A stretch of DNA of 36,207 nt from positions 1 through 36,207 of the IMG/VR virus record IMGVR_UViG_2541047897_000007; one strand, written 5' to 3'. The notes beneath the pieces are model-generated. The model had not been told where the DNA came from. It did not search any database and saw nothing but the letters and a program-made list of their open reading frames with translations. Each line of letters starts with the position of its first letter. Positions within the stretch are counted from its first letter, which is position 1. The translations under genes were made by a program, and so were the position numbers. Origin of the DNA: a virus. Its lineage: Duplodnaviria; Heunggongvirae; Uroviricota; Caudoviricetes. Of this stretch, positions 15,480 to 36,207 are shown one piece after another.

Positions 15480-15632
15480 TGCTCCCCCTGAGTAATTACA
15501 GGAAGATTACCCGCGCGCGAAACCGTTCTCCTTAACCCCCTGTTCTGACCGTTTTCTTACAACAAAAGCCCTTTGTATCAGCCTGTTACGCTTTGCCATC
15601 ATGACTGAAGAACCAGTCAGAGGGGCAAAACT
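15480..15632. promoter_or_regulatory. divergent late promoter region (P-Q leftward, O-N-M-L rightward)
   Basis: 153-bp gap between divergent late operons, as for the P2 late promoters; no individual promoter elements were confidently assigned. Confidence 0.35.
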
Positions 15633-20307: not shown

Positions 20308-20458
20308 CACTCCCACATGGGGAAATCTCGGTATATGGGGCGACCGCCTTCTGGATGCACTGGAAACCTGTAACGCGGATAAACGGGCCATTGAATTACT
20401 GGAACAGCGCAGGCTGCAACGACTGAACAACGAGGATAACAACCATGCTGAAAACTGA
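20138..20458 (+). CDS. lysC: outer-membrane lipoprotein spanin (Rz1/LysC-like), out of frame within and beyond lysB
   Basis: lipobox LVLLTGC, Pro-rich mature region; the internal start at 20168 is an alternative. Confidence 0.55.
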   Translation: MNSYATILQKMNAPTLCLTLVLLTGCAGTQNAPRPAPSVRLIPQTLTIPVTPPPFPDTPTWGNLGIWGDRLLDALETCNADKRAIELLEQRRLQRLNNEDNNHAEN

Positions 20459-20912
20459 TTCCCTGCGTGAAGCCATGACCCGTTCATGCCGATGGTGTCA
20501 GGCCAACCCGGAAAAATTCACCATTTTCGTGGAGAGCGGCAACATTGAAACGACCGGAGAAACGCCCTCGTTTGTTTACCGCTATCAGATGGTGATGTTT
20601 GTCATGGATTACGCCGGGGAGCTGGACGACCTCACGCTGCCGCTACTGGCGTGGTTATCCGAAAATCAGCCACAGTTGTTGCTCAATCCGGAGCGTAATC
20701 AGGACATCAAATTTTCCGCCGTTATCAATGACGATGACAGCGCCGATCTCCTGTTTACGCTCCCCCTGCGGGAACGCGTTCGCATCACGCGCAACAGTCA
20801 GGGCACACCGCAGGCAGAACACCTGCCGGAGCCAAAACCCCGTCTGCCCTCTTCCGAAGGCGACTGGTCGCATGTATTCCAGGATGTGACGTGGGGTGAA
20901 AGCGATGGATAA
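20445..20912 (+). CDS. R: tail completion protein (P2 gpR-like)
   Basis: 155-aa ORF, size and position as P2 R. Confidence 0.75.
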   Translation: MLKTDSLREAMTRSCRWCQANPEKFTIFVESGNIETTGETPSFVYRYQMVMFVMDYAGELDDLTLPLLAWLSENQPQLLLNPERNQDIKFSAVINDDDSADLLFTLPLRERVRITRNSQGTPQAEHLPEPKPRLPSSEGDWSHVFQDVTWGESDG

Positions 20913-21540
20913 GGCATTCACCCGTGTGGATGAAACCTTTGAGGCCATCCGTGACAGCCTGAATCAGCAGGTCATCAATAACATCGCCAGAAAGCTGGCA
21001 CAGGATTTACGCCGCGCCCAGCAGGCACGTATCCGGTCACAGAAAGCGCCGGACGGGACCGCGTGGACACCTCGCAGACGCCGCGTAACCCGGATACAGG
21101 AGCGCATTCGCTTTATCTGGAATAACGAAGCACGCACGCTGAAAAACTGGCATCACGACACGGGGAAATACGGGCGAACCATTACCGGGTGGGATGAGGA
21201 TAAAAACAATATCCGCACGTTTTACCGGGATGACATCGACCGTTTTCTGGAAATACGCACCCGGCGCATCAACCAGGACAGCACAAAGCGCGTCCCCATG
21301 TTCGTAAAACTGCGCACCGCCCGCTACCTGAAAGCCCGTGCAGATGCTTCCGGTGTGACGGTGGGTTACAGCGGCGTGGCCGCACGTATTGCCCGCGTTC
21401 ATCAGTTCGGTGAGCGCGATCAGGTTGCGCCGGGCATTTTCACCGATTACCCGGTACGTGAGCTGCTGGGTATCAGCCAGGCAGATGAGCGCCTGATTTA
21501 TAACACGGTGCTGGGCCGGATTGCGGAGGCTGTACGGTGA
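20896..21540 (+). CDS. S: tail completion / virion morphogenesis protein (P2 gpS-like)
   Basis: ORF-track start is a GTG at 20896; the ATG at 20905 is an alternative; synteny. Confidence 0.7.
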   Translation: MKAMDKAFTRVDETFEAIRDSLNQQVINNIARKLAQDLRRAQQARIRSQKAPDGTAWTPRRRRVTRIQERIRFIWNNEARTLKNWHHDTGKYGRTITGWDEDKNNIRTFYRDDIDRFLEIRTRRINQDSTKRVPMFVKLRTARYLKARADASGVTVGYSGVAARIARVHQFGERDQVAPGIFTDYPVRELLGISQADERLIYNTVLGRIAEAVR

Positions 21541-23966: not shown

Positions 23967-26134
23967 CAATGAAATACTACGCCATTCTGACTAATCAGGG
24001 CGCGGCACGACTGGCTAACGCGACGATGCTCGGCAGTAAGCTGAATCTGACGCAAATGGCCGTTGGTGATGCAAATGGTGTGTTACCAACACCAAACCCT
24101 GCACAAACAAAACTGATTAACCAGAAACGCATTGCACCGCTGAATCTTCTGAGTGTTGACCCTAACAATCAGAGCCAGATTATTGCGGAGCAAATTATCC
24201 CTGAAGACGAGGGAGGATTCTGGATCCGTGAGATTGGTCTTTATGATGATAAAGGTGTACTCATTGCGGTGGCAAACTGCCCGGAAACGTACAAACCGCA
24301 GTTGCAGGAAGGCAGTGGACGCACCCAGACTATCCGCATGATTCTGGTTGTCACGAACACCAAAGCCATCACGCTGAAAATCGACCCGTCTGTGGTTCTG
24401 GCAACCCGCAAATATGTGGATGATAAAATCTCAAAGCACGAGCAGTCACGACGTCACCCGGACGCCTCGCTGACCGCAAAAGGCTTTGTTCAACTTAGCA
24501 GCGCCACGGACAGTCAATCAGAAACTGAGGCTGCCACGCCGAAGGCTGTGAAAATCGCGTATGATCTGGCCCGGGGAAAATACACAGCCCAGGATGCAAC
24601 AACGACCCGTAAAGGGATCGTACAACTGAGCAGTGCCATCAACAGCACGTCTGAAACGCTGGCCGCCACACCAAAAGCCGTCAAGGCTGCATACGACCTT
24701 GCAGCTGGCAAGGCACCCGTCAGCCACACTCACCCGTGGAGTCAGATAACGGGAGTGCCTGCTGCCTCGCTGACGGCAAAAGGCACCGTACAACTGAGCA
24801 GTGCCACGGACAGTCAATCAGAAACTGAGGCTGCCACGCCGAAGGCTGTGAAAATCGCGTATGATCTGGCCCGGGGAAAATACACAGCCCAGGATGCAAC
24901 AACGACCCGTAAAGGGATCGTACAACTGAGCAGTGCCACCAACAGCACCTCTGAAACGCTGGCCGCCACACCAAAAGCCGTCAAGGCTGCATACGACCTT
25001 GCAGCCGGCAAGGCGCCCGTCAGCCACACTCACCCGTGGAGTCAGATAACGGGAGTGCCTGCTGCCTCGCTGACGGCAAAAGGCACCGTACAACTGAGCA
25101 GTGCCATCAACAGCACGTCTGAAACGCTGGCCGCCACACCGAAGGCCGTCAAGGCTGCATACGACCTTGCAGCCGGCAAGGCGCCCGTCAGCCACACTCA
25201 CCCGTGGAGTCAGATAACGGGAGTGCCTGCTGCCTCGCTGACGGCAAAAGGCACCGTACAATTGAGCAGTGCCATCAACAGCACGTCTGAAATACTGGCC
25301 GCCACACCGAAAGCGGTCAAGGCTGCATACGACCTTGCAGCTGGCAAGGCACCCGTCAGCCACACTCACCCGTGGAGTCAGATAACGGGAGTGCCTGCTG
25401 CCTCGCTGACGGCAAAAGGCACCGTACAATTGAGCAGTGCCATCAACAGCACGTCTGAAATACTGGCCGCCACACCGAAAGCGGTCAAGGCTGCATACGA
25501 TCTGGCAAACGGAAAACAACCGGCAGATGCCACGCTCACTGCTCTGGCAGGACTTGTCACTGCAGCAGATCGGTTGCCTTATTTTACCGGAGCAGACCGC
25601 GCAGCGCTGGCAACCCTTACAGCTATTGGTCGCGCTATTATCGCTAAGGGCAGTATAAAAGATGTCCTCAATTACCTTGGTTTGGGAGAAGGTTCTCCAG
25701 CTATTGGCGTTCCGTTCTTCTGGCCGTCCGCCGCAATGCCAGATACCGTAATCAAAAGCTGGTCCAGTATGGTGTTTTTGAAGTTCAACGGGGCGAAATT
25801 TTCTGCCTCTGATTACCCTGTGCTGGCAAAAGTGTTTCCTTCGCTGGTATTACCTGAAGCCCGCGGTGATTTCATTCGTATCTGGGATGACGGGCGAGGT
25901 GCAGACGGTGGTCGCAAATTATTAAGCTGGCAGGCAGCTACAAACTTTTCTCAGTTTGCCGGGAATATAGGCGGAGGTGCGGGACACGCAATTAATTTTC
26001 ATGATGGCATCGCCGGAAATCAGCCAGGATTTTCACGATTTAATTTCACCAGTAACTCTTTGGGTGATGGTGTGAATTTTGTTGCTGTCAGACCGCGAAA
26101 TATTGCATTTAACTTTCTGGTGAGGGCTAAATAA
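23963..26134 (+). CDS. H: tail fibre protein (P2 gpH-like) with internal tandem repeats and an invertible C-terminal segment
   Basis: 723-aa ORF; N-terminus MKYYAILTNQGAARLANA is gpH-like; internal 100-aa and 56-aa repeats; C-terminal 148 aa lie inside the invertible segment. Confidence 0.9.
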   Translation: MTMKYYAILTNQGAARLANATMLGSKLNLTQMAVGDANGVLPTPNPAQTKLINQKRIAPLNLLSVDPNNQSQIIAEQIIPEDEGGFWIREIGLYDDKGVLIAVANCPETYKPQLQEGSGRTQTIRMILVVTNTKAITLKIDPSVVLATRKYVDDKISKHEQSRRHPDASLTAKGFVQLSSATDSQSETEAATPKAVKIAYDLARGKYTAQDATTTRKGIVQLSSAINSTSETLAATPKAVKAAYDLAAGKAPVSHTHPWSQITGVPAASLTAKGTVQLSSATDSQSETEAATPKAVKIAYDLARGKYTAQDATTTRKGIVQLSSATNSTSETLAATPKAVKAAYDLAAGKAPVSHTHPWSQITGVPAASLTAKGTVQLSSAINSTSETLAATPKAVKAAYDLAAGKAPVSHTHPWSQITGVPAASLTAKGTVQLSSAINSTSEILAATPKAVKAAYDLAAGKAPVSHTHPWSQITGVPAASLTAKGTVQLSSAINSTSEILAATPKAVKAAYDLANGKQPADATLTALAGLVTAADRLPYFTGADRAALATLTAIGRAIIAKGSIKDVLNYLGLGEGSPAIGVPFFWPSAAMPDTVIKSWSSMVFLKFNGAKFSASDYPVLAKVFPSLVLPEARGDFIRIWDDGRGADGGRKLLSWQAATNFSQFAGNIGGGAGHAINFHDGIAGNQPGFSRFNFTSNSLGDGVNFVAVRPRNIAFNFLVRAK
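24461..25500 (+). repeat. in-frame tandem repeat array within H (2 x 300 bp, then 2 x 168 bp plus a partial unit)
   Basis: near-identical units starting at 24461, 24761, 25061, 25229 and 25397, encoding ASLTAKGTVQLSSA...HTHPWSQITGVPA. Confidence 0.85.
25665..25690. repeat. left crossover site of invertible segment (gix/hix-like), inside H
   Basis: ttggtttgggagaa at 25677..25690 is the exact reverse complement of ttctcccaaaccaa at 27501..27514; it encodes the LGLGE junction of H. Confidence 0.6.
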
Positions 26135-26727
26135 TGAAACCTGTTTTTGATGAAAATGGGCTGGCTACAGTGCCGGGCGATATGCGTTGTTTTTATTATG
26201 ATGCTGAAACATCTGAGTATACGGGCTGGTCTGATGAATATATTAATACTGGCGTAAGTATGCCCGCCTGTTCCACTGGTATTGACCCTGGCGAAAACAT
26301 TCCGGGAAGAGTGGCAGTATTTACAGGTAAGGGATGGAGCCTTGAAGAAGACCATCGCAATGAGACTGTTTACTCAATCGAAAATGGTGCTGCTGTTACA
26401 GTGGATTATATCGGTGCCATCAAAAACGGTTATGTCACGCTTTCACCGTTAACGCCATATGATAAATGGGATGGTGAGAAATGGGTGACAGATACTGAGG
26501 CACAACACGGTGCCGCAGTAGAAGCGGCAGAAGCACAGCGCCAGTCACTGATTGATGCTGCAATGGCCTCCATCAGTCTGATTCAGCTGAAATTACAGGC
26601 CGGGCGGAAGCTGACGCAGGCAGAAACCACCCGGCTTAACGCCGTGCTTGATTACATTGACGCGGTGACGACAACAGATACCAGCACCGCGCCGGATGTC
26701 ATCTGGCCTGAACTGCCGGAGGCGTAG
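26134..26727 (+). CDS. G: tail fibre assembly chaperone (P2 gpG-like)
   Basis: 197-aa ORF translationally coupled to H; conserved Tfa-like C-terminus LDYIDAVTTTDTSTAPDVIWPELP. Confidence 0.8.
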   Translation: MKPVFDENGLATVPGDMRCFYYDAETSEYTGWSDEYINTGVSMPACSTGIDPGENIPGRVAVFTGKGWSLEEDHRNETVYSIENGAAVTVDYIGAIKNGYVTLSPLTPYDKWDGEKWVTDTEAQHGAAVEAAEAQRQSLIDAAMASISLIQLKLQAGRKLTQAETTRLNAVLDYIDAVTTTDTSTAPDVIWPELPEA

Positions 26728-27139
26728 GCCATTCAATATCTGGCGCACCGGAAGTATCGACCAGTTCCAGTGCGTCCAGATAATCCAGCCACAAATTATA
26801 TTGCGCCAGTTCCTCACCTTTCAGACGACCAATAGCCGCTTTACCAGGCCATTGTTTACTGTTCATATAATCGTTGGCCTGATTAATCAGTTGCTGCTTT
26901 TCCTGTTCGGCTGCAGCAATCTGTTCCTCATGTGTTGGTGGTGGAATTTCAGACCATGCAGGAAAACCATTTTCTCCAGCGATACGGATTTTTCCTTTCG
27001 GCGGTAATCCGGAAAACTCAATATACACTTGCTCATCAACTTCAACAGCATCATCTGGCCATGAGTCAGCTTGTGTGTAATCCTCTTTCATCTCCAAGGG
27101 ATAGAAAGAGTTTGTCGTCGCGGAATATATGTAATTCAT
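26699..27139 (-). CDS. alternative tail fibre assembly chaperone (G'), inverted orientation
   Basis: 146-aa ORF on the opposite strand with Tfa-like C-terminus LDYLDALELVDTSGAPDIEWPTPP; convergent with and overlapping G, as in Mu G-segment / P1 C-segment architecture. Confidence 0.75.
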   Translation of the reverse strand: MNYIYSATTNSFYPLEMKEDYTQADSWPDDAVEVDEQVYIEFSGLPPKGKIRIAGENGFPAWSEIPPPTHEEQIAAAEQEKQQLINQANDYMNSKQWPGKAAIGRLKGEELAQYNLWLDYLDALELVDTSGAPDIEWPTPPAVQAR

Positions 27140-27161
27140 TTTTTCACTCCATATAGCTAAA

Positions 27162-27514
27162 TTAACAGCCTAACGCTAAAAATGAAGCGCCGAGGCCAGG
27201 AGTACTGGCTCTGGATATAAATTTAACCGGGTCGGAACTAAAACCTGCACAGGCAATATAACCAACAGCCCCGCTATCTGGTGTGTAGTCTTGTGAGACC
27301 AAAACACGCAGACATCTGTTTGGAAATGCAATCGGGAAATGGGTTACTACATCCTGTGCAATGCCTGGTGCGCCGATTGAGCCCCACTGAAGAATAAAAC
27401 CAGATGGTAATTTTTGATATCCAGTACCTGAAACAGAAAGCGTGAAGCTACCCATATCAGGTATCTGATTCGTCCCTGTCCCCACATTCCTTTTTGCCGC
27501 TTCTCCCAAACCAA
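27162..27514 (-). other. promoter-less alternative C-terminal coding segment of the tail fibre (H' variable part)
   Basis: minus-strand frame open from the right crossover site to a stop at 27162; encodes ...[10 protein letters not shown]..., matching the LGLGE junction in H; would fuse to H after inversion. Confidence 0.6.
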
Positions 27515-27526
27515 CGTTTTCGTTTT
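27501..27526. repeat. right crossover site of invertible segment (gix/hix-like)
   Basis: ttctcccaaaccaacgttttcg fits the Din-family crossover pattern (TTCTC..AAACC-NN-GGTTT) recalled from memory; 55 bp upstream of the invertase start. Confidence 0.6.
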
Positions 27527-27580
27527 TATCCCTACCTATACCAACTCTGTATTTTTCACGAAACAAAGAGGATGTTTTTT

Positions 27581-28180
27581 ATGCAAATTGGCTATATTCG
27601 TGTGTCAACAAACGACCAGAACACGGATTTACAACGCAATGCACTGAACTGCGCAGGATGTGAACTGATTTTTGAAGATAAAATCAGCGGAACGAAATCA
27701 ACCAGACCGGGATTGAAAAAACTGCTCAGAACGCTATCAGAAGGAGATACGCTGGTTGTCTGGAAGCTGGACAGACTGGGCAGAAGTATGAAACACCTGA
27801 TCACGCTTATTGAGGAATTGCGGGAAAAAGGTGTTAATTTCCGTAGTCTGACGGACAGCATTGACACGTCAACACCCATGGGGCGTTTCTTTTTTCACGT
27901 CATGGGGGCTTTAGCCGAAATGGAACGTGAATTAATTGTAGAACGTACACTGGCCGGGCTGGCAGCAGCACGCGCACAAGGACGCATTGGCGGACGTCGC
28001 CCGAAGTTGACAAAAGAACAACACGAGCAAATAGCAAGGCTGATTAAAAACGGTCATGACAGGAAACAACTGGCGATCATTTACGACATCGGCATATCGA
28101 CGATTTATCGTTATCACCCTGTAGGCGATATACAGGCTGAAGCAACAACTAGGCAGACTCAGGAAAATGAAAACCGCTAA
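27581..28180 (+). CDS. serine recombinase, DNA invertase of the Gin/Hin/Pin/Cin family
   Basis: 199-aa ORF; N-terminus MQIGYIRVSTNDQNTDLQRNAL with catalytic Ser, LVVWKLDRLGRSMKHL and C-terminal HTH; close to Gin as recalled. Confidence 0.9.
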   Translation: MQIGYIRVSTNDQNTDLQRNALNCAGCELIFEDKISGTKSTRPGLKKLLRTLSEGDTLVVWKLDRLGRSMKHLITLIEELREKGVNFRSLTDSIDTSTPMGRFFFHVMGALAEMERELIVERTLAGLAAARAQGRIGGRRPKLTKEQHEQIARLIKNGHDRKQLAIIYDIGISTIYRYHPVGDIQAEATTRQTQENENR

Positions 28181-28197
28181 TCTGACCATTAGCGGTT
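28171..28197. terminator. hairpin between convergent invertase and U genes (candidate bidirectional terminator)
   Basis: aaaccgctaat-ctgacc-attagcggttt, an 11-bp perfect stem overlapping the invertase stop. Confidence 0.4.
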
Positions 28198-28206
28198 TTG
28201 CGTTAA

Positions 28207-28701
28207 TCAAAACAGCCCTTTAACGGAGCTGGCCGCGCTGTTAAGGGATGATGTGACCTTATCTTTGAAGCCGGACAGCATATCACTGAACGATGAGGAT
28301 TGCAGGCGCTCCCGCAAATCCTCATCACAGCGTTCAAGGGTCAGTGAAAATTCTATCTTTTTCGCCTTACCGTAGCGATCAAACTCGGAACGGGTCGTAT
28401 TCGTTTCGGTCAGGACATACATGCCGTAAATCTGCCCGACACCATCAATCAGAGGCCAGGGGCGTCCTGTATATGCCTGCGTGGTCAGCAACGAAAGCGA
28501 CACTTCGCCACCTGTAATTTCAGGATAAAGCACGCCTGAAAGCACGATGCGATCATCACCTGCACCGATATACTGCCAGCTTGCTGAACGGTTAACGCGT
28601 TCATTTTTCACATGCCGCCAGCTTTTGCTTTGCTGTAACTGCTGATGCGGCAACGTGCGCAGCTCAAAAACAAACATGCCGTAGATCATCATCATGGCCA
28701 T
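28207..28701 (-). CDS. U: tail protein U (tail terminator, P2 gpU-like)
   Basis: 164-aa ORF directly downstream of the tape measure gene on the minus strand; size and position as P2 U. Confidence 0.75.
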   Translation of the reverse strand: MAMMMIYGMFVFELRTLPHQQLQQSKSWRHVKNERVNRSASWQYIGAGDDRIVLSGVLYPEITGGEVSLSLLTTQAYTGRPWPLIDGVGQIYGMYVLTETNTTRSEFDRYGKAKKIEFSLTLERCDEDLRERLQSSSFSDMLSGFKDKVTSSLNSAASSVKGLF

Positions 28702-28707
28702 GACTCC

Positions 28708-31700
28708 TCAATCTTTATCGTAAAAACTGCCACGCCCGGCACGGGCGCGCCGTTCCATTTCTGCCCTGACCATTTCACCGACCAGTTTCGCCAGTTCGCG
28801 GGGATTCTGCGTAACAACGTTATGCAGATGAACATGAATTTCACCACCAAATCCGGAGGCAACAGGCTCCCGGTTACGGGAAGTTACAGGAACTGATGCC
28901 ACTGGCGATCGTATGGCCTCCGCCACCGGGCGGGAGCTGGCCGCAACAACAGGGACCAGCGCCGGAGGCAGCGGAGCCGGGACCACGGGTGTGGTATTAA
29001 TTGCGGGGGCAGGCTTACTGACCTGCGCAATCTTCCGCTCCTGCCACTCCCCACCAGGGACCAGCGCCAGAGGCAGCGGAGCAGGGACCACGGGTGTGAT
29101 ATTAATTGCGGGGGCAGGCTTACTGACCTGCGCAATCTTCCGCTCCTGCCACTCCCCACCAGGGACCAGCGCCGGAGGCAGCGGAGCAGGGACCACGGGT
29201 GTGATATTAATTGCGGAGGCAGGCTTACTGACCTGCGCAATCTTCCGCTCCTGCCACTCCCCACCAGGGACCAGCGCCAGAGGCAGCGGAGCAGGGACCA
29301 CGGGTGTGATATTAATTGCGGGGGCAGGCTTACTGACCTGCGCAATCTTCCGCTCCTGCCACTCCCCACCAGGGACCAGCGCCAGAGGCAGCGGAGCAGG
29401 GACCACGGGTGTGATATTAATTGCGGGGGCAGGCTTACTGACCTGCGCAATCTTCCGCTCCTGCCACTCCCCACCAGGGACCAGCGCCGGAGGCAGCGGA
29501 GCAGGGACCACGGGTGTGATATTAATTGCGGAGGCAGGCTTACTGACCTGCGCAATCTTCCGCTCCTGCCACTCCCCACGAACGGCAAGTGCGCGGGGCA
29601 GGTTCTTAAAGACAATATCACCGGGGCCAATGCGTTTTTTCGTCTCATCAACCAGCTTACCTGTGTTATCAGCAATTTTGCTGAGTCTGCGTAGCGTACC
29701 GGTATTGCTGTCTGTGAGCGGTTTGTTGTCTTTGGGTTTATCGCCTCCGGTGCCATTGCCATTTTCCGCAGACTTCGGCGGATTGATTTTCGCAATGTCT
29801 CCCTGAAACAGAGCAACCTTGTCCTGAAGAATGGCCGCACGCTGTGCGTCTTCAATTTTCTTGCGCGCCCTTTCCGCTTCATCCGGAAGGACGCCAAGTT
29901 TTTCAAGTATCCACGCCAGCGTATCCAGTAGCATTTTTGCAGGTGTCAGAACAAGCTGTAACGCACCGCCAAGAACGTTACCGAATATCTCGCCAGCACT
30001 GGTACATTTATCCAGCGTTTCCTTGCTGGACTCCATCGGTGACAGCAGCGATTTAAACCAGTTAAAGACCTGAATAATCCCATCGCGCACGACATCAAAA
30101 ACAGGACCGAACCGTTCAAAGGTTTCGCGCAACGGAGCCAGTCGTTCCATAATCCCGTTGAACACCCCGATATAAAACGCCTTGATGGGTTCCCAGTATT
30201 TCCAGATGAGAACTGCCGCAGCCACAAACGCGGCAACAATCAATCCGACCGGACTGAACAGCGCCCCGATAGCGCCACCCAGCAACGAGATGGAACCTGT
30301 TACCATTCCCCATAGTGCTGGCAGCACCCTGACGACATTCATTGATCCTGTCAGGAGAGAAAAACCGAGACGTAACGTAGCCAGCTTCCCGTGAAGCACC
30401 CCAATAACCAGAGACAACGAACCAACCGTTGCTGTTGTCGCCAGCAGTGCGCCTCCCGCTATCAGTAACTGGCGCGTCAGTACCGGATGGGCCTGCGCCA
30501 GCGCCGTCACCTTTGAGACCACCCGCGTGAGCCACTGCGTGACAGAACGCAGCGGACCGTCAATCAGATCTGCAATGCGGATGCGCAACCCTTCCCATGC
30601 ACTGCCGAGTGATTTCAGATCGCCATCAAGGTTGTTGGCCATAACCTTTGCCGTGCGTTCAGCCTCACCGCGTGCGCCCTCAAGTTCTTTTCTCAGTTTG
30701 GGTAAGGAACCGTCACCCGCCGCATCAACGAGTGCCATAAACGATGTGAAAGCCTCTTCCCCGGCGATGTCCTTAAAGAAGGATACCCGGTCAACTTCCC
30801 CGTATTTGCGGGTGGCTTTATAAAGGTCAGCCAGCAGATCTTCCATCGGGCGCATTTTGCCCCCGGCATCCGAGACGGACACGCCCAGCTCTTTCAGAGC
30901 TTCTGCCGCCGCCTTTGGCGGTGATGCCAGACGAGCCAGGCTGGCACGCATTGCCGTCCCGGCATCACTCCCTCTGATGCCCATATTCGCCAGCACGCCC
31001 GCCATCGCTGCGGCCTGCTCCAGCGATATCCCCAGCTTACCCGCCACCGGACCGGCATATTTCATGGTTTCGCCCAGTGCGCGAAGGTCAGTGTTGGTAC
31101 GGGTAAACGCTGCGGTGAGTGTGTCTCCGACCCGGTCCATCTGGTCAGCAGAAAGGCCGAACTGCGTCAGGATATTTGAGCCAATATCTGCCGTCTCGCC
31201 GAGATCCATACCGCCAGCCGTTGCCATGCTCAGTACGCCGGGAAGCGCAGCCTGAATGGCCTGCGGAGTGAAGCCTGCCATTGCAAGAAATGCCTGCCCA
31301 CTGGCGGCATCGCCTGCGGTGAACTGCGTTTCAGAGCCAAGTTTTAACGCCTGCTCACGCAGCGCCTTAAACTGCGGGCTGTTTTTGTCGATTCGCGTCA
31401 GTGCCTGAACGCGGGACATCTCTTTCCCGAACCCGATCGCAGGCTGCAAAAAACGCCCGGCAGCATAGCCGCCAGCCGCTGCCGCACCAATTGCCAGCGC
31501 ACCACCTGTTTTCAGTTTTCCTGCTGTTTCCTGCGCGCGCGAATACCGCTCACGCGCACGCGTTACACGCGCAAGCGCCTGCTGTTCGCGTTCAAGCTGA
31601 TTGTTGTACTGTTCGGTGCGTCTGATGGCCTGCTGGATGGTGTTATCGCTGCCTGTCAGGGAAATGCCGTGGCGTTTCAGCTCTCCGCCAAGCTCCCGCA

Positions 31701-32076
31701 TTTTCTGAATTTCCCGTGTGCGCGATTCATTCAGGCGTTCAAGCCGGGTGCTTAACTGCTGCATCAGCTTTTGTTGTTTTTCGCTGAGCACTGTACCCGT
31801 GCGTTGTAACTGATTAAGGGCGTTAAGCTGGCGTCGTGCTTTCACGATGCCAGCATCCGCTTTACTGACAGCGTCACGGGCGCGCTCAAATGAACGCGCC
31901 TGACGCTCGAGATTTTTGATCGCCCCCTGCGTTCGCTGGATGGAGTCACCAAACTGCCCCATCAGGCGGCGGGCGTTTTCGGCAGGCCGGGTCAGCCTGT
32001 CAACGGCGCTGAAAGCGACCCGGATATCAAGAGTCTTCATTGTCTGCATTCCCGCTGCGAAGTGCCGCCCGCTCAC
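28708..32076 (-). CDS. T: tail tape measure protein (P2 gpT-like) with proline-rich tandem repeats
   Basis: 1122-aa ORF; Ala/Gly-rich helical N-terminal two thirds with hydrophobic segments; follows the E/E' frameshift genes; six 35-aa repeats near the C-terminus. Confidence 0.85.
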   Translation of the reverse strand: MSGRHFAAGMQTMKTLDIRVAFSAVDRLTRPAENARRLMGQFGDSIQRTQGAIKNLERQARSFERARDAVSKADAGIVKARRQLNALNQLQRTGTVLSEKQQKLMQQLSTRLERLNESRTREIQKMRELGGELKRHGISLTGSDNTIQQAIRRTEQYNNQLEREQQALARVTRARERYSRAQETAGKLKTGGALAIGAAAAGGYAAGRFLQPAIGFGKEMSRVQALTRIDKNSPQFKALREQALKLGSETQFTAGDAASGQAFLAMAGFTPQAIQAALPGVLSMATAGGMDLGETADIGSNILTQFGLSADQMDRVGDTLTAAFTRTNTDLRALGETMKYAGPVAGKLGISLEQAAAMAGVLANMGIRGSDAGTAMRASLARLASPPKAAAEALKELGVSVSDAGGKMRPMEDLLADLYKATRKYGEVDRVSFFKDIAGEEAFTSFMALVDAAGDGSLPKLRKELEGARGEAERTAKVMANNLDGDLKSLGSAWEGLRIRIADLIDGPLRSVTQWLTRVVSKVTALAQAHPVLTRQLLIAGGALLATTATVGSLSLVIGVLHGKLATLRLGFSLLTGSMNVVRVLPALWGMVTGSISLLGGAIGALFSPVGLIVAAFVAAAVLIWKYWEPIKAFYIGVFNGIMERLAPLRETFERFGPVFDVVRDGIIQVFNWFKSLLSPMESSKETLDKCTSAGEIFGNVLGGALQLVLTPAKMLLDTLAWILEKLGVLPDEAERARKKIEDAQRAAILQDKVALFQGDIAKINPPKSAENGNGTGGDKPKDNKPLTDSNTGTLRRLSKIADNTGKLVDETKKRIGPGDIVFKNLPRALAVRGEWQERKIAQVSKPASAINITPVVPAPLPPALVPGGEWQERKIAQVSKPAPAINITPVVPAPLPLALVPGGEWQERKIAQVSKPAPAINITPVVPAPLPLALVPGGEWQERKIAQVSKPASAINITPVVPAPLPPALVPGGEWQERKIAQVSKPAPAINITPVVPAPLPLALVPGGEWQERKIAQVSKPAPAINTTPVVPAPLPPALVPVVAASSRPVAEAIRSPVASVPVTSRNREPVASGFGGEIHVHLHNVVTQNPRELAKLVGEMVRAEMERRARAGRGSFYDKD
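28953..29578 (-). repeat. six tandem 105-bp in-frame repeats inside T
   Basis: period of exactly 105 bp (marker ggct at 29012, 29117, 29222 ...), encoding GEWQERKIAQVSKPA[SP]AINITPVVPAPLP[PL]ALVPG. Confidence 0.85.
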
Positions 32077-32556
32077 GCCAGCTAACCACTTCGCCGGGCG
32101 TCATCATGAAGATTTCAGCGGGCGACCAGTTAAAAATAACGGCAATATCTGCCACAAAGTCTTCTATGTGCTCAAAGCACACAACCGTGATCAGGCTTCC
32201 GTCGCCTGTTCGTTCTTCCCGCCAGAGTCCGCACCGCTCAAAAAATTTACGGCAACCACACATAACTGAATAAAGTCACGGGATGCCATTTTTTTGATCG
32301 TCACTTCATCCAGTCGCGGTGATGTCACGCGTGACAGCAGCGTAAACATGGATTCCGCTTTCAGATTCAGCACATCAGACAACGACAAATCTCGCAGAGA
32401 TCCAGCCTGCTCAATAGCTCCGGTGATCTCCACATACGTGATTTTTTCGCCGCCTCGCTCAATTGGTTGGGTAAGTTTTACGCCACGCTCACTGGTTTCT
32501 TTCACAGTGTCAGTAACTACCGTGTTTTCGGTATCGATGTTTTTCGTCTCTTTCAT
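32027..32556 (-). CDS. tail assembly chaperone E+E' made by programmed -1 frameshift
   Basis: the -1 frame is open from the slippery site to a stop at 32027 and overlaps the start of T, as in P2. Confidence 0.65.
32191..32556 (-). CDS. E: tail assembly chaperone E (P2 gpE-like)
   Basis: 121-aa ORF with AGGAG RBS; contains a T6G slippery heptamer near its 3' end. Confidence 0.75.
   Translation of the reverse strand: MKETKNIDTENTVVTDTVKETSERGVKLTQPIERGGEKITYVEITGAIEQAGSLRDLSLSDVLNLKAESMFTLLSRVTSPRLDEVTIKKMASRDFIQLCVVAVNFLSGADSGGKNEQATEA
32239..32245 (-). other. programmed -1 ribosomal frameshift slippery heptamer TTTTTTG
   Basis: minus strand gta aat ttt ttg agc in the E frame becomes aaa ttt ttt gag cgg in the -1 frame, which continues as FFERCGLWREER... 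Confidence 0.65.
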
Positions 32557-32610
32557 CAGGAAACTCCTTTCAGTCAGAGGCGACGCACTGCGCCGCCTGC
32601 ATATTACTTA

Positions 32611-33123
32611 TCAGCCAAGCCCAAGCGCGGAACGGATACGGTCAGGCACAATGTCCTTGCCGTCCTTCCGGTAAATGAAGTTCAGCAGGTCAATCTCCCA
32701 CAACGGGCGATCGTTAACACTCAGCTTGTAGTAGGTGTTTTTAATGGCGTAAGTGTGTGATGTGGCTTCGCCCTGTTTGGCTTCCCCCATATCAATTTCC
32801 GTCACACGTCCGCGCATCTCGATTTCATACAGATCGCTTTCTGCATCGGTGTAGTATTCACCCGCAAAACGCAGCAGCGTGCCGTCAATCGTGCCGCCAT
32901 ATTTAAGGAACAGCGCACGAACAGCTCCCCCCATAACAAAACTCGCATCAAGCGCGGAGTCGTCCAGACCGAGATCAATACTTACCGCCCCCATCATGCC
33001 ACCACCACGATAGCTGTCGGTTTTGCGCGTCAGTTTGGGCGGCGTGACGGATGTCACTTTACCCACTTCGTTTTCACCATCCACAAACAACGTAAAAAAG
33101 CGAAGATGTTTTGGTACAGCCAT
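32611..33123 (-). CDS. FII: tail tube protein (P2 gpFII-like)
   Basis: 170-aa ORF between sheath and E genes; size as P2 FII. Confidence 0.8.
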   Translation of the reverse strand: MAVPKHLRFFTLFVDGENEVGKVTSVTPPKLTRKTDSYRGGGMMGAVSIDLGLDDSALDASFVMGGAVRALFLKYGGTIDGTLLRFAGEYYTDAESDLYEIEMRGRVTEIDMGEAKQGEATSHTYAIKNTYYKLSVNDRPLWEIDLLNFIYRKDGKDIVPDRIRSALGLG

Positions 33124-34307
33124 CAGGCACCTCCCAGCACCGCAAATGCGGGACCAAAGAATTCATCAGTAAACGTCTGGTAAAGCTCCATGTCTTCCAG
33201 TGGCGGAACGGGCGTATATTTGTAGCGAATACGCACACGTCCCTGACGTAAATTCGTGGTGCCGTTATCCACCACGTCATACCAGCACTCCGCACCAATC
33301 AGTTTCCCGGCAGTAACCAGCGAATCCAGTTTTGCCCTGATGGCACTGATAACATCCTTCACGTTCGCAGGCGTCAGTGGACTGTCGATGGTTTCAAACT
33401 GCGCTTCCGCAATTGAATCAGCCAGCACCTGTGCGGTTCGGGTATACACCTCAAAGATGTAGGCGTTCGTTTCCGGTGTGCGGTTGCCCCAGAAGCGGAA
33501 CCCGTTGCGACGAATAATGGTCGTGATTTCTTTGTTGTTGAGGCTGTTGGCATCGCTGTCTTCGGCCTGCAACGACCAGAACACATGCCTCGACATCCCC
33601 AGCACATTTTTAACCGGAACGTTGGACAGTGATTTGTGCCATCCCTGCTCATGGTCAATGTACGCACGAAGGCCGCACGCATAGGCAGGCGCGGGGAACG
33701 TTTCGTTTTTGCCACTTTTCGGGTTGTAGGCGATGAAGTCCGGCCATAAGAGCATCACCTCACGTTCGTTGAATTTCTGGCGGTAGGTAATCGCCTCAGC
33801 CATCGTGTTACAGCCGTGACATGAGGCATACACAAACGCGCGCAGTTTACCCGCAATCACGCACAGGGATTTTGTTACCGCCTCCGTGTCCAGCTCCGGC
33901 GCGGCCAGAATACGCGGACGGTATCCGATGCTTTCATCCTGCTCTGCAACAAGCAGCGCATACATCCCCGTATAGCTGCCGTCAGATTCAGAACCACCGA
34001 TAACCAGTTGATCCTGCGTCTTTCCGTCTTCTTCTTTGTGTTCAGCCACGCGAACGACGATCACCTTTGTGCTCACCTGGTCTGCGATGGCCTTAAGCGC
34101 ACGATAAAGCGTCCCCGTTGTCCCGCATTTTCCCAGCACGTCATTGACGCGGGTCAGCAGTGTGGGCTTGTTCAGCGGGAACAGCTTCGCGTCCGCATCA
34201 TCCGCCGTTGCCACGATACCGATAACGCTGGAATCAACATCGTTAATCGCTGTTACCAGGTCGGTACTTTCCGTAACACGGGCACCATGAAAACGAGTTT
34301 CACTCAT
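33123..34307 (-). CDS. FI: contractile tail sheath protein (P2 gpFI-like)
   Basis: 394-aa ORF, first gene of the tail operon; size as P2 FI. Confidence 0.85.
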   Translation of the reverse strand: MSETRFHGARVTESTDLVTAINDVDSSVIGIVATADDADAKLFPLNKPTLLTRVNDVLGKCGTTGTLYRALKAIADQVSTKVIVVRVAEHKEEDGKTQDQLVIGGSESDGSYTGMYALLVAEQDESIGYRPRILAAPELDTEAVTKSLCVIAGKLRAFVYASCHGCNTMAEAITYRQKFNEREVMLLWPDFIAYNPKSGKNETFPAPAYACGLRAYIDHEQGWHKSLSNVPVKNVLGMSRHVFWSLQAEDSDANSLNNKEITTIIRRNGFRFWGNRTPETNAYIFEVYTRTAQVLADSIAEAQFETIDSPLTPANVKDVISAIRAKLDSLVTAGKLIGAECWYDVVDNGTTNLRQGRVRIRYKYTPVPPLEDMELYQTFTDEFFGPAFAVLGGA

Positions 34308-34464
34308 AGCTTCAGCCCCTTGTATCCGTTAAATGATTCGGCAACAATCATCACCCACCACGCGCGTAATCTCACCCCTGCGCCGTTCTCCCGCCACGGC
34401 GACAACAAAAAGCAGTAACCCCCTCCGCACGCACATGCGACCATGCCGCACAGGGAGGGAGCAG

Positions 34465-35574
34465 ATGACCGACACCACCATGCAATTGCTCAGTCAGGGC
34501 ACAGACCCCGTAAAAATGCCGGATTTTGATATTCTCGCGGAGGGTAAAACGCTGTCAGGCGTGGCAGAGCGCCTGATGAGCCTGTCACTGACCGACAACC
34601 GGGGATTTGACGCGGACCAGCTCACCATCACGCTGGATGATGCGGATGGTCAGTTGCAGCTACCGCCACGGGGCGCGCGCCTGACGGTTCTCATTGGCTG
34701 GAAAGGAGAACCGCTGACAGAAAAAGGCACTTACATTGTTGATGAAATCGCTCACGAAGGACCGCCGGACAGGCTGACTGTTTCAGCCAGAAGCGCAGAT
34801 TTTCGGGATGAATTTAACGTTAAACGTGAGGTGTCCTGGCATGATGTGACCGTTGAGCGTGTGGTATCCGCCATCGCTCATCGGTATGGTCTGAAACCGC
34901 AAATCAGCGAAATGCTGATGGATATCGAAATCGACCACGCCGACCAGACCGAAGAAAGCGACATGTCCTTTCTTACGCGCATGGCGGAAATGCTGGGCGC
35001 AATCACCACGGTAAAAAGCGGTAATCTGTTATTCATTATGCCCGGTGGTGGCGTGAACGCACAGGGCCAGCCGTTGCCATCGTTCGCCATCACACGCAGC
35101 AGCGGCGATCGCCATCAGTTCCGCATTGCTGACCGCGAGGCGTATACGGGGGTACGCGCTTACTGGCTTGATCTTAATTACGGGAAAAAGAAAAAAGTCA
35201 GCGTGAAACGCCGTAAACCGCCAAAACCGAAAAAAGAGAAAAGCAGCAGCCGTGAAGGTGATTATATGGAAGGCGCGGAAGGCAATGTGTTTGTGTTACG
35301 CAAGACTTATCAGAACGAGCAGGCAGCAAGACGCGCAGCGGCGGCAAAGTGGCAACAACTACAACGCGGAGCCGCATCATTCTCCATCACGCTGGCACGT
35401 GGACGAGCAGAACTCTACCCCGAAATGCATGGCACGGTAACAGGCTTTAAAAGCGAGATTGATAATCAGGACTGGATTATTGCGAAAGCCGAGCACACCA
35501 TTGATAACAGCGGCTTTACCACGCAGCTTGAGCTTGAGGCAAAAATCCCGGAATGGATAGCGGAAACAGAGTGA
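34465..35574 (+). CDS. D: tail protein D (late control gene D family)
   Basis: 369-aa product from the ATG at 34465 (GGGAGGGAG RBS); lies immediately upstream of ogr as in P2; a KKKK/basic patch follows in the C-terminal half. Confidence 0.75.
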   Translation: MTDTTMQLLSQGTDPVKMPDFDILAEGKTLSGVAERLMSLSLTDNRGFDADQLTITLDDADGQLQLPPRGARLTVLIGWKGEPLTEKGTYIVDEIAHEGPPDRLTVSARSADFRDEFNVKREVSWHDVTVERVVSAIAHRYGLKPQISEMLMDIEIDHADQTEESDMSFLTRMAEMLGAITTVKSGNLLFIMPGGGVNAQGQPLPSFAITRSSGDRHQFRIADREAYTGVRAYWLDLNYGKKKKVSVKRRKPPKPKKEKSSSREGDYMEGAEGNVFVLRKTYQNEQAARRAAAAKWQQLQRGAASFSITLARGRAELYPEMHGTVTGFKSEIDNQDWIIAKAEHTIDNSGFTTQLELEAKIPEWIAETE

Positions 35575-35616
35575 GCAACTTAGAATAGCGGCAGCACCAC
35601 GTTAAAGGAGGTCGCT

Positions 35617-35877
35617 ATGTTCCGTTGTCCGCTTTGTGGCGCATCTGCCCGTATCCGCACCAGTCGTCCGGAAAATGATTCAAACACCGTGCGGCAAAAG
35701 TATTACCAGTGTAACAACCTGGAATGCGGCGTATGCTTCTCAACACTGGAAGCTTTCCATAAATTCACATCGAAACACGCCTCCGGCGTTCACTCATCAG
35801 AAGGTATCCCGTGGCATGAGCTGCCAGCTTCACACAGGGGAAACAATCAGATGAGTTTGCCTTTACCTCAGAATTAA
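35617..35877 (+). CDS. ogr: Ogr/Delta-family zinc-finger late transcription activator
   Basis: 86-aa ORF; MFRCPLCGASARIRTSR...YYQCNNLECGVCFSTLEAF has the C-x2-C...C-x4-C zinc-finger pattern and matches P2 Ogr as recalled. Confidence 0.85.
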   Translation: MFRCPLCGASARIRTSRPENDSNTVRQKYYQCNNLECGVCFSTLEAFHKFTSKHASGVHSSEGIPWHELPASHRGNNQMSLPLPQN

Positions 35878-36066
35878 CAGGCAGAATTGCCGGAGTAACA
35901 AAAAAGCGATAGATTACGTGCGGGTGCCTTTCGGCTGATGGTCGGAGGGAATACCCGAAGGCCGGATGTGGAAAGGCCCCGGAAAACATTTCTGTTTAAC
36001 CGAGGCCCTAACCCGTCAACCTAGCAAGTGATAGGTTAGCGCCTCTCCAACAAAGGAGCAAGCGCT

Positions 36067-36207
36067 ATGTCGCAAAAATCGCTTACGGCCATCACGTTCT
36101 GCGTGACGGTAATCCTCATCATCTGGATGCTGCACGGTTCGCTGTGTGAAATACGGATGAGCTTCTGGGGAGCGGAGTTTGCGGCGTTCTTACAGTGTAA
36201 GCAGTAA
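36067..36207 (+). CDS. hok: Hok/Gef-family type I toxin (small membrane peptide)
   Basis: 46-aa ORF read by hand; TM helix LTAITFCVTVILIIWML followed by GSLCEIR...EFAAF, matching the Hok signature SLCEIR...EVAAF as recalled; hairpin-rich leader upstream. Confidence 0.6.
   Translation: MSQKSLTAITFCVTVILIIWMLHGSLCEIRMSFWGAEFAAFLQCKQ

What the first reader, a model, noticed from the sequence alone, without database searches (positions are those of the whole stretch)
28207..34464. Tail gene block FI-FII-E-T-U is on the opposite strand from P2 convention
In P2 as I recall it, FI, FII, E, E+E', T, U and D form one operon on the same strand as V..G and ogr. Here D and ogr are on the plus strand but FI through U are on the minus strand, which implies an inversion of about 6.1 kb with one end next to the invertase gene. 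D would then be separated from its operon and need its own promoter in the 158-bp FI/D gap. No clear inverted repeats were seen at the block ends, though a weak crossover-like ttctcccgcc lies at about 34395.
Basis: partly seen in the sequence, partly recalled or inferred. Interest (0 to 1): 0.5.

Follow-up and report, generated by a model that had tools for sequence, protein, structure and literature searches.

The report
Ancient fixed tail-gene inversion, P88-like prophage
The tail genes FI to U do run opposite to phage P2's order here, but this is the normal inherited layout of a large, already sequenced group of P2-like phages (P88 and relatives), not a fresh inversion, an invertase product or an assembly error.

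Summary
U, T, E/E', FII and FI (28207-34307) lie on the minus strand; D and ogr lie on the plus strand. In P2, 186, SopEPhi and phiCTX all of these genes share one strand.

The arrangement is not anomalous:
- Viable phages P88, PhiSM, 500465-2, 3LV2017, SEN5 and KSP20 have the same layout.
- The FI/D junction occurs at >=95% identity in 1,379 of 5,426 complete E. coli genomes.
- Of 90 loci examined, 70 are inverted, from about 27 Enterobacterales genera. They form one clade in both the D and FI trees (100/100 bootstrap).

The neighbouring invertase is unrelated to the block. Its only two crossover sites (25674-25690 and 27501-27517) flank the H/G tail-fibre cassette. Only 10 of 66 inverted loci have an invertase beside U.

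The 157-bp FI/D gap carries a GTTCT-N12-ACAAC dyad (34385-34406), which matches the P2 Ogr-site consensus. -10 elements sit 48.5 nt to each side of its centre. Both the dyad and the -10 elements are conserved across the clade, and the window's P/O gap has the same design. One activator site probably drives divergent pF and pD promoters; this step is inferred, not shown.

Verdict: ordinary and already represented in databases; low interest.

The parts
25674..27517 (.). Invertible tail-fibre cassette: the H C-terminus and G in one orientation, and G' (26699-27139) and the H' C-terminus (27162-27566) in the other. It is bounded by crossover sites TTCTCCCAAACCAAGGT (25674-25690, -) and TTCTCCCAAACCAACGT (27501-27517, +). 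This is the invertase's real substrate.
   Evidence: The inverted repeat is 18 nt and 94% complementary (I9). These are the only two matches in the window at up to 3 mismatches, against 0.09 expected by chance.
27581..28180 (+). Serine DNA invertase of the Hin/Gin/Cin/Pin type.
   Evidence: Pfam Resolvase (3.8e-51) plus HTH_7. PHROG 125, DNA invertase, 2e-100. The start codon was read.
28170..28199 (.). Bidirectional intrinsic terminator between the convergent invertase and U genes. The stem AAAACCGCTAAT...ATTAGCGGTTTT has an A-run on one side and a T-run on the other.
   Evidence: Terminator scan. Hairpin of -14.1 kcal/mol followed by a T-rich tail, starting 8 nt after the U stop codon. Sequence read.
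28207..28701 (-). gpU tail protein, the last gene of the inverted F operon.
   Evidence: Pfam Phage_P2_GpU, 5e-39.
28708..32040 (-). gpT tape measure protein. It contains six tandem 105-bp (35-aa) repeats at 28950-29579.
   Evidence: PHROG 28 and Pfam PhageMin_Tail. ATG at 32040. TRF finds period 105, 6.0 copies, 98% matches.
32027..32556 (-). gpE (32191-32556) and the E+E' -1 frameshift product, which ends at 32027. The slippery heptamer T TTT TTG lies at 32239-32245.
   Evidence: PHROG 103. Pfam Phage_P2_GpE in the -1 frame. Reading frames read directly.
32611..33123 (-). gpFII tail tube protein.
   Evidence: Pfam Phage_tube, 5.5e-46.
33123..34307 (-). gpFI tail sheath protein, the first gene of the leftward operon.
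   Evidence: PHROG 23, 8e-126. Pfam sheath domains.
34308..34464 (.). FI/D divergent control region. The dyad GTTCTCCCGCCACGGCGACAAC lies at 34385-34406 (centre 34395.5). The leftward -10 is GATGAT (plus-strand 34347-34352). The rightward extended -10 is TG-c-GACCAT (34436-34444). The D Shine-Dalgarno GGGAGGGAG lies at 34453-34461. Predicted transcription starts are about 34340 (pF, leftward) and about 34451 (pD, rightward).
   Evidence: This is one of only two exact GTTST-N12-ASAAC matches in the window; the other is in the P/O gap. The dyad is conserved at the same position in relatives. The -10 positions are invariant or nearly invariant across 60 distinct relatives. Shuffle control.
34465..35574 (+). 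gpD, the baseplate hub or 'late control D' protein. It is uncoupled from U and has its own ribosome-binding site.
   Evidence: Pfam Phage_GPD and PHROG 52. The short start is supported by the P88 annotation and by the conserved Shine-Dalgarno and ATG in relatives.
35617..35877 (+). ogr/delta-type zinc-finger late activator with a CX2C-X24-CX4C motif.
   Evidence: Pfam Ogr_Delta, 52.4 bits against a cut-off of 26.3. Translation.
15542..15563 (.). For comparison: the same dyad, GTTCTGACCGTTTTCTTACAAC, in the middle of the P/O divergent late-gene gap (15480-15632).
   Evidence: The P2 record annotates a single activator site shared by pP and pO.

Best explanation
The window is a P88-like (Xuanwuvirus/Gemsvirus-type) P2-family prophage. 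Its FI-FII-E/E'-T-U block has the orientation that a large enterobacterial clade of Peduoviridae inherited from one old inversion of the P2-type F operon.

The breakpoints lie upstream of pF and exactly at the U/D boundary. As a result the block now converges on the V-G/tail-fibre operon and ends at a bidirectional terminator (28170-28199). The old pF control region abuts D.

I infer that the single dyad-symmetric Ogr-binding site in the 157-bp FI/D gap activates two divergent late promoters. pF runs leftward into FI-U. A new pD runs rightward into D and probably ogr. This matches the way the P2 record annotates one activator site serving the divergent pP and pO promoters.

The neighbouring serine invertase only flips the 1.8-kb H/G tail-fibre cassette. 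It occupies the variable cargo slot between G and the tail block.

What is shown: the gene layout, its distribution, monophyly of the inverted group, the invertase's own crossover sites, and conservation of the motifs. What is inferred: the direction of change (canonical to inverted), Ogr dependence, and the transcription start points.
For: Layout and identities.

Canonical order: P2, 186, SopEPhi, phiCTX.

Same inverted layout in annotated phages:
- P88 and 500465-2, at 93-96% nucleotide identity across the region.
- Klebsiella 3LV2017 and ST16-OXA48phi5.4.
- Salmonella SEN5.
- Serratia KSP20.
- An E. coli relative that carries an acetyltransferase in place of the invertase.

Frequency: the FI/D junction is found at >=95% identity in 1,379 of 5,426 complete E. 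coli genomes. In 1,109 of them it covers at least 80% of the query, and most of the rest still span the gap.

Survey of 80 loci from species-representative genomes, plus phage records:
- 70 are inverted and 20 canonical.
- Every D protein at >=61% identity to the window's D is in an inverted locus. Every D at <=54% is in a canonical locus.
- The inverted group is monophyletic in both the D and FI NJ trees, 100/100 bootstrap, rooted on phiCTX.

Invertase:
- Only two crossover sites exist, both around the H/G cassette.
- An invertase sits beside U in only 10 of 66 inverted loci.

Promoter model:
- The only two exact GTTST-N12-ASAAC sites in the window are the centres of the P/O and FI/D gaps.
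- The gap length is conserved, with a median of 154 bp.
- The dyad lies 78-88 bp from the FI ATG and 67-80 bp from the D ATG in most loci.
- 85% of 66 distinct gaps have a site with <=2 mismatches, against 4.7% of shuffles; 44% have <=1 mismatch, against 0.3%.
- Aligned on the dyad, the A2/A5/T6 positions of a leftward -10, and TG plus A2/T6 of a rightward extended -10, are the most conserved flanking positions. Each lies 48.5 nt from the dyad centre, which places the site near -55 for both promoters.
- P2 late promoters are Ogr-dependent and carry TGT-N12-ACA (PMC3931495).
- The P2 record annotates one activator site for both pO and pP.

Viability: P88 and PhiSM are inducible or spontaneously active phages (PMC6456863).
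Against: - No transcript mapping or binding data exist for this clade, so the promoter model rests on motif position and conservation alone.
- The window's dyad is TCT-N12-ACA, a 5/6 match to the consensus. Both -10 hexamers are weak, as expected for activator-dependent promoters.
- The predicted pD leader is only about 14 nt.
- About 10 of 70 gaps score 3-4 mismatches, or their best-scoring site falls off the conserved position (Xenorhabdus and Photorhabdus loci).
- The polarity of the change rests on one distant outgroup (phiCTX) and on NJ trees. phiCTX FI is much closer to the canonical group than to the inverted group (68% against 51%), so the root is not secure.
- Only the best 80 of 433 genomic relatives were examined.
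- I found no paper that describes the inversion. 'Already known' therefore rests on deposited, annotated genomes rather than on a published statement.
Confidence: 0.85

Rival explanations
1. The FI-U block is an active invertible segment, or a recent product of the adjacent serine invertase. It would then switch between the P2-like and inverted orientations.
For: An invertase gene ends 27 bp from the U stop codon. TTCTCCC at 34387-34393 resembles the start of the crossover site.
Against: - No inverted repeat links the block ends.
- A 17-nt crossover-site pattern with 3 mismatches finds only the two sites around the H/G cassette.
- The TTCTCCC string is part of the Ogr-type dyad and is not conserved in relatives, which have GTTGTGACC..., GGTCTGAC... 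and similar.
- 56 of 66 inverted loci have no invertase beside U.
- Essentially all of about 1,380 E. coli copies span the same FI/D junction.
- From general knowledge: Hin/Gin/Cin/Pin enzymes need paired 26-bp sites in inverted orientation plus an enhancer.
Confidence: 0.02
2. The arrangement is an assembly error or reflects population heterogeneity in the source genome.
For: None beyond the difference from P2.
Against: - Identical junctions occur in independently sequenced isolated phages.
- They also occur in more than 1,100 complete E. coli genomes.
- The layout is found in about 27 genera.
- Both junctions have coherent functional signals: a terminator at one end and a promoter region at the other.
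Confidence: 0.01
3. The inverted layout arose several times independently, or it is the ancestral state and the P2/186 order is the derived one.
For: - With only two reciprocally monophyletic groups, polarity depends on the outgroup.
- phiCTX FI is closer to the canonical group (68%) than to the inverted group (51%). It may therefore not be a true outgroup for FI.
Against: - The inverted group is monophyletic at 100/100 bootstrap in two genes on either side of the breakpoint, which argues against recurrence.
- The canonical order is found in Pseudomonas phiCTX as well as in P2, 186 and SopEPhi.
- U and D overlap by 1-4 nt in all four canonical phages, which suggests translational coupling. In the inverted clade, D has its own Shine-Dalgarno sequence and a variable N-terminus.
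Confidence: 0.1
4. D is not expressed from an Ogr-dependent promoter that shares the pF dyad. It would instead use an ordinary sigma-70 promoter, or a start within the longer ORF that begins at 34333.
For: - The ORF is open from an ATG at 34333, and some records annotate that long form: 500465-2 and KSP20.
- The dyad matches the consensus at only 5/6 positions.
- No experimental data are available.
Against: - No sigma-70 consensus promoter was found on the plus strand of the gap.
- The long ORF would overlap the dyad and the pF region. PHROG and tblastn homology begins only at or after the short start.
- The Shine-Dalgarno plus ATG of the short form, and the TGn extended -10 located 48.5 nt from the dyad centre, are conserved in 60 distinct relatives.
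- The window's P/O gap has the same geometry.
Confidence: 0.2

Closest known systems
Escherichia phage P88 (Xuanwuvirus), phage 500465-2 (Gemsvirus), Citrobacter phage PhiSM, E. coli O157 Sakai prophage Sp13
   Same: 93-96% nucleotide identity across 26000-36207. The layout is identical: invertase (+), U-T-E'-E-FII-FI (-), D (+), ogr (+), then hok. The FI/D gap is the same apart from 1-2 substitutions.
   Different: The window's T gene has six copies of a 105-bp unit instead of one. 500465-2 has an extra 1-kb ORF between D and ogr. The tail-fibre cassettes differ.
Bacteriophage P2 F operon (pF-FI-FII-E-E'-T-U-D, then ogr), and its equivalents in 186, SopEPhi and phiCTX
   Same: Same gene set in the same internal order. 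Same E/E' -1 frameshift and same Ogr/Delta-type activator. The late-promoter dyad is of the TGT-N12-ACA type.
   Different: FI-U is inverted relative to D and ogr. D is no longer the last, overlapping cistron after U; it has its own ribosome-binding site and a presumed promoter. D proteins are about 52% identical to P2 gpD.
P2 pP/pO divergent late promoters, which share one activator-binding site
   Same: A single dyad sits in the middle of a gap of about 155 bp between divergent late genes, with -10 elements about 48 nt to each side, so that the site lies near -55 for both. The window's own P/O gap carries the same GTTCT-N12-ACAAC dyad.
   Different: Here the second such unit drives FI and D, a pairing that does not exist in P2. 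Function has not been tested.
Din-family invertible tail-fibre segments (Mu G/Gin, P1 C/Cin, e14 P/Pin)
   Same: The 25674-27517 cassette has a Hin/Gin-type serine invertase, paired inverted crossover sites, and alternative H C-termini with their G chaperones.
   Different: This system is adjacent to the FI-U block but does not include it.

Membership tests
P2-like (Peduoviridae) contractile-tail module | Presence of sheath FI, tube FII, E with a -1 frameshift E', tape measure T, U, hub D, and an Ogr/Delta zinc-finger activator | tested here: met
   Pfam and PHROG hits for every gene. Slippery T TTT TTG and the E' frame read directly. Ogr CX2C...CX4C motif.
P2-like (Peduoviridae) contractile-tail module | The P2 gene order, with FI..U, D and ogr co-oriented in one operon | tested here: not met
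   FI-U are on the minus strand and D and ogr on the plus strand. P2, 186, SopEPhi and phiCTX are all co-oriented. This order is a property of some genera, not of the family as a whole.
P88-like lineage (Xuanwuvirus/Gemsvirus and the wider clade with inverted FI-U) | High nucleotide identity to P88 and 500465-2 across the tail region | tested here: met
   93.6-96.7% identity over 79-94% of 26000-36207. 98-99% identity at the FI/D junction.
P88-like lineage (Xuanwuvirus/Gemsvirus and the wider clade with inverted FI-U) | FI divergent from D across a gap of about 150 bp, and D and FI proteins that fall inside the inverted clade | tested here: met
   (100/100 bootstrap).
Din-family (Hin/Gin/Cin/Pin) invertible segment, applied to the FI-U block | A pair of roughly 26-bp crossover sites in inverted orientation at the two ends of the segment | tested here: not met
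   No inverted repeat at 28181-28206 versus 34308-34464. No further crossover-like site at up to 3 of 17 mismatches.
Din-family (Hin/Gin/Cin/Pin) invertible segment, applied to the FI-U block | Both orientations found among close relatives | tested here: not met
   Nearly all of about 1,380 E. coli copies span the same FI/D junction. 0 of 70 members of the clade are re-inverted.
Din-family invertible segment, applied to the H/G cassette 25674-27517 | Serine invertase, paired inverted crossover sites, and alternative tail-fibre C-termini with chaperones | tested here: met
   The recombinational enhancer and actual switching were not tested.
Ogr/Delta-dependent P2 late promoter | A TGT-N12-ACA dyad centred near -55 | tested here: inconclusive
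   The window has TCT-N12-ACA (5/6) inside GTTCT-N12-ACAAC. Relatives have perfect TGT-N12-ACA at the same place. The -10 elements lie 48.5 nt from the centre on both sides. The consensus is taken from PMC3931495.
Ogr/Delta-dependent P2 late promoter | Transcription start and dependence on the activator | not testable with these tools
   This needs RNA 5'-end mapping and an ogr knockout or reporter assays.

The most novel reading that the evidence does not exclude
The inversion was viable in a single step because the pF activator site is dyad-symmetric. Once flipped against D, the same Ogr site could activate a rightward promoter, which replaced the U-D coupling. This would create a second pP/pO-like bidirectional late control unit, one that now marks a very large enterobacterial clade of Peduoviridae. 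It would also put D-ogr under direct Ogr positive feedback. I found no description of this in the papers searched.
Probability: 0.55. Interest if true: 0.3.

Novelty: already known. Interest (0 to 1): 0.15.

Why it matters
It matters mainly as a correction. Gene order in P2-like phages is not uniform, so a departure from the P2 map should not be read as a rearrangement, an invertase product or a mis-assembly.

The orientation of FI-U relative to D is a clean, easily scored character. It separates a very common enterobacterial lineage (P88, Sp13, 3LV2017, SEN5 and KSP20 types, present in about a quarter of complete E. coli genomes) from the P2, 186 and Fels-2-like lineages.

The conserved dyad with mirror-image -10 elements gives a concrete, testable prediction for how D and ogr are expressed in that lineage.

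Tried and rejected
- Exact TGT-N12-ACA search of the window. It gave 3 hits, fewer than chance, and none in the late-gene gaps. The wider GTTST-N12-ASAAC form was needed.
- I recalled Fels-2/SopEPhi as sharing the inverted layout. That was wrong: SopEPhi is canonical.
- Sigma-70 consensus scan of the FI/D gap. It found no plus-strand promoter, as expected for activator-dependent promoters.
- Conservation of a terminator after U across the clade. Only 25 of 63 distinct downstream sequences pass a crude hairpin-plus-T-run test. The terminator claim is therefore made for the window and its close relatives only.
- Literature searches for an explicit description of the inversion, covering P88, Xuanwuvirus, P2-like with inversion, and xnp1/xenorhabdicin. 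Nothing relevant was found. Morales-Soto & Forst 2011 (PMC3133312) is not held.

Full report
**1. What is there**

The window is a complete P2-family prophage. It starts with the integrase (1-1002, minus strand) and ends with ogr and a hok-type gene.

- a serine DNA invertase (27581-28180, +);
- gpU (28207-28701, -);
- the tape measure gpT (28708-32040, -);
- gpE (32191-32556, -), with its -1 frameshift extension E' ending at 32027. The slippery T TTT TTG lies at 32239-32245;
- the tube protein gpFII (32611-33123, -);
- the sheath protein gpFI (33123-34307, -);
- gpD (34465-35574, +);
- an Ogr/Delta zinc-finger activator (35617-35877, +).

FI to U run leftward, D and ogr run rightward, and a 157-bp gap separates the FI and D start codons.

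**2. Comparison with the reference phages**

The annotated P2 record has FI, FII, E, E+E', T, U, D and ogr on one strand. It shows a single activator site and start point for the 'F operon' and one terminator after ogr. Phage 186, Salmonella SopEPhi and Pseudomonas phiCTX have the same order. Relative to these phages the block is inverted. One breakpoint lies upstream of pF. The other lies exactly at the U/D boundary; in all four reference records U and D overlap by 1-4 nt.

**3. It is not an anomaly**

A megablast of 26000-36207 finds the same region at 93-97% identity in several phages: Escherichia phages P88, 500465-2, P884B11, 520873, 503458, PhiR44_2 and Chuche, and Citrobacter phage PhiSM.

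The annotations of P88 and 500465-2 show exactly the window's layout: invertase (+), U-T-E'-E-FII-FI (-), D (+).

A more sensitive search with the FI/D junction finds it as a single junction-spanning match in much more distant phages. Their annotations show the same divergent FI/D arrangement:
- Klebsiella 3LV2017 (Reginaelenavirus);
- Klebsiella ST16-OXA48phi5.4 (Reipivirus);
- Salmonella SEN5 (Senquatrovirus);
- Serratia KSP20.

None of these four has an invertase next to U.

Among 5,426 complete E. coli genomes, 1,379 carry the FI/D junction at >=95% identity. In 1,109 of them the match covers at least 80% of the 1.2-kb query. Most of the remainder are O157:H7-type copies that still span the gap but have a truncated D.

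P88 is inducible and lytic, and PhiSM is spontaneously active (PMC6456863; PMC5285337). The arrangement is therefore functional.

**4. One old event**

I aligned six D proteins and used the alignment to fetch 80 loci from species-representative bacterial genomes. tblastn with the window's and P2's tail proteins classified every locus. Including the window and the phage records, 70 are inverted and 20 canonical.

The split is clean. Every D protein at >=61% identity to the window's D sits in an inverted locus, and every D at <=54% identity sits in a canonical one.

The inverted loci come from about 27 genera of Enterobacterales:
- Salmonella, Klebsiella, Enterobacter, Citrobacter, Kosakonia
- Serratia, Erwinia, Pantoea, Pectobacterium, Brenneria, Symbiopectobacterium
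- Edwardsiella, Hafnia, Yersinia, Providencia, Morganella
- Xenorhabdus, Photorhabdus and others

In NJ trees of D and of FI, two genes on opposite sides of the breakpoint, the inverted group is monophyletic in 100 of 100 bootstrap replicates when rooted on phiCTX.

With phiCTX, P2, 186 and SopEPhi all canonical, the simplest reading is a single canonical-to-inverted change on the stem of this clade. The polarity is less secure than the monophyly. phiCTX FI is clearly closer to the canonical group (68% against 51%), and I sampled only one distant outgroup.

**5. The invertase is a bystander**

The only significant inverted repeat near the invertase is the 18-nt pair at 25674-25691 and 27500-27517. 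A 17-nt pattern taken from it finds just these two sites in the window, even with three mismatches allowed; 0.09 matches are expected by chance.

The two sites bracket a typical host-range switch of the Mu G / P1 C / e14 P kind. It contains the C-terminal part of H and G in one orientation, and a second G and H C-terminus in the other.

No repeat links the ends of the FI-U block.

It lies inside the promoter dyad described in section 6, and relatives have different bases there.

Only 10 of 66 inverted loci that retain U have an invertase beside it. A close E. coli relative has a serine acetyltransferase in that position instead. Homology among E. coli copies breaks right at the U stop codon.

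The invertase thus sits in the variable cargo slot between the tail-fibre genes and the tail block. P2 has Z/fun in the same slot, and SopEPhi has the sopE cassette and an invertase fragment.

**6. How the inverted layout is probably expressed**

*The U end.* The convergent invertase and U genes are separated by a hairpin at 28170-28199. It has an 11-12 bp stem, an A-run on one side and a T-run on the other, and a free energy of -14.1 kcal/mol. It looks like a bidirectional intrinsic terminator. This holds for the window and its close relatives. Only 25 of 63 distinct sequences across the clade pass a crude terminator test.

*The FI/D end, in the window.* The gap contains GTTCTCCCGCCACGGCGACAAC (34385-34406). 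The pattern GTTST-N12-ASAAC has only two exact matches in the 36-kb window. The other is GTTCTGACCGTTTTCTTACAAC, in the middle of the P/O gap. P/O is the other pair of divergent late genes. P2 late promoters are Ogr-dependent and carry TGT-N12-ACA (PMC3931495). The P2 record annotates one activator site for both pP and pO, about 55 nt from each start point.

*The FI/D end, across the inverted clade.*
- The gap length is conserved, with a median of 154 bp.
- The best GTTGT-N12-ACAAC match lies 78-88 bp from the FI ATG and 67-80 bp from the D ATG in most loci.
- The spacer sequence varies freely.
- 85% of 66 distinct gaps have a site with <=2 mismatches, and 44% have <=1. The corresponding figures for shuffled gaps are 4.7% and 0.3%.

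*Flanking positions.* When 60 distinct gaps are stacked on the dyad without gaps, two sets of flanking positions are the most conserved:
- A, T and T at -48, -47 and -44. On the FI strand these are A2, A5 and T6 of a -10 hexamer, GATGAT in the window (34347-34352).
- TG at +41/+42, with A at +45 and T at +49. Together these form an extended -10, TG-c-GACCAT in the window (34436-44).

Both T6 positions lie 48.5 nt from the dyad centre. Assuming the usual 7-nt spacing from T6 of the -10 to the start point, the site lies at about -55 for a leftward start near 34340 and a rightward start near 34451.

*Support for the short D start.* A conserved Shine-Dalgarno sequence and ATG follow the rightward -10. 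This supports 34465 as the D start, rather than the longer ORF from 34333 that some records annotate.

I therefore infer one Ogr site driving divergent pF and pD. None of this has been tested experimentally. The window's left half-site is TCT rather than TGT, and about ten gaps, mostly from Xenorhabdus and Photorhabdus, fit less well.

**7. Alternatives considered**

- An active invertible segment, and a mis-assembly, are both effectively excluded (sections 3 and 5).
- Recurrent inversion is excluded by the monophyly of the inverted group (section 4).
- The reverse polarity, with the inverted layout ancestral, cannot be excluded rigorously.
- D expression from some other promoter remains possible, at about 0.2.

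**8. Novelty and score**

The arrangement is present in deposited, annotated genomes of isolated phages and in a quarter of complete E. coli genomes. As a feature it is already known, although none of the papers I could search comments on it.

The modestly new points are the clade-wide survey, the single-origin result and the bidirectional-promoter prediction. Interest is low, at 0.15.

Noticed in passing
window 28950-29579 (inside gpT, minus strand): Six tandem copies of a 105-bp (35-aa, in-frame) unit, 98% alike. P88 and nearly all of about 1,370 E. coli genomes with this gene have a single copy. The window's 1,051-bp stretch maps onto about 525 bp in those genomes. The tape measure is therefore about 175 aa longer (1,110 against 935 aa), which predicts a longer tail if the repeat is real.
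   Followed up: partly
window 36068-36207 (+), leader region about 35900-36060: A 46-aa Hok/Gef-family toxin gene (MSQKSLTAITFCVTVILIIWMLHG...) sits just after ogr and ends exactly at the window's last base. P88, 500465-2 and E. coli relatives annotate the same gene as MokW-like or Hok/Gef.
   Followed up: partly
window 32239-32245 (minus strand): A T TTT TTG slippery heptamer in gpE leads by a -1 shift into the GpE-family E' frame, which ends at 32027 and overlaps the T start at 32040. This is the conserved tail-chaperone frameshift.
   Followed up: partly
window 20445-21540: The S-like and V-like ORFs overlap (20445-20912 and 20896-21540). There is no intergenic gap and no exact dyad site, so this lineage may lack a separate pV promoter. 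The O operon may run on through V-G.
   Followed up: no
window 27548-27565: One of only three exact TGT-N12-ACA matches in the window (TGTATTTTTCACGAAACA) lies 16 nt upstream of the invertase ATG, between the crossover site and the gene. It could be chance.
   Followed up: no
L012 (NZ_JBQPOM010000071.1, labelled Vagococcus sp. WN89Y): A contig assigned to a Gram-positive Vagococcus carries this prophage's tail region, with D 98% identical to the window's D. This is most likely contamination or mislabelling of the assembly.
   Followed up: no
Phage records NC_049344.1 (520873) and NC_049341.1 (503458); L048, L020, L082: Several relatives have insertions in this region. IS100 (IS21 family) lies under the tape-measure match in phages 520873 and 503458. 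The FI/D gap is 845 bp in L048 and 252 bp in L082. In L020 the strongest FI match is shifted by roughly 600 bp towards D.
   Followed up: no
E. coli O157:H7 genomes (e.g. NC_002695.2, prophage Sp13): O157:H7 copies match the FI/D query only to position 933, and there is a second match elsewhere in the record. D is therefore interrupted or truncated. Sakai annotates pseudogenes there, which fits a defective prophage.
   Followed up: no
L002 12155-13177 (phage 500465-2): A 1-kb minus-strand ORF of unknown function is inserted between D and ogr. The window has only 42 bp there. This looks like another small cargo slot.
   Followed up: no
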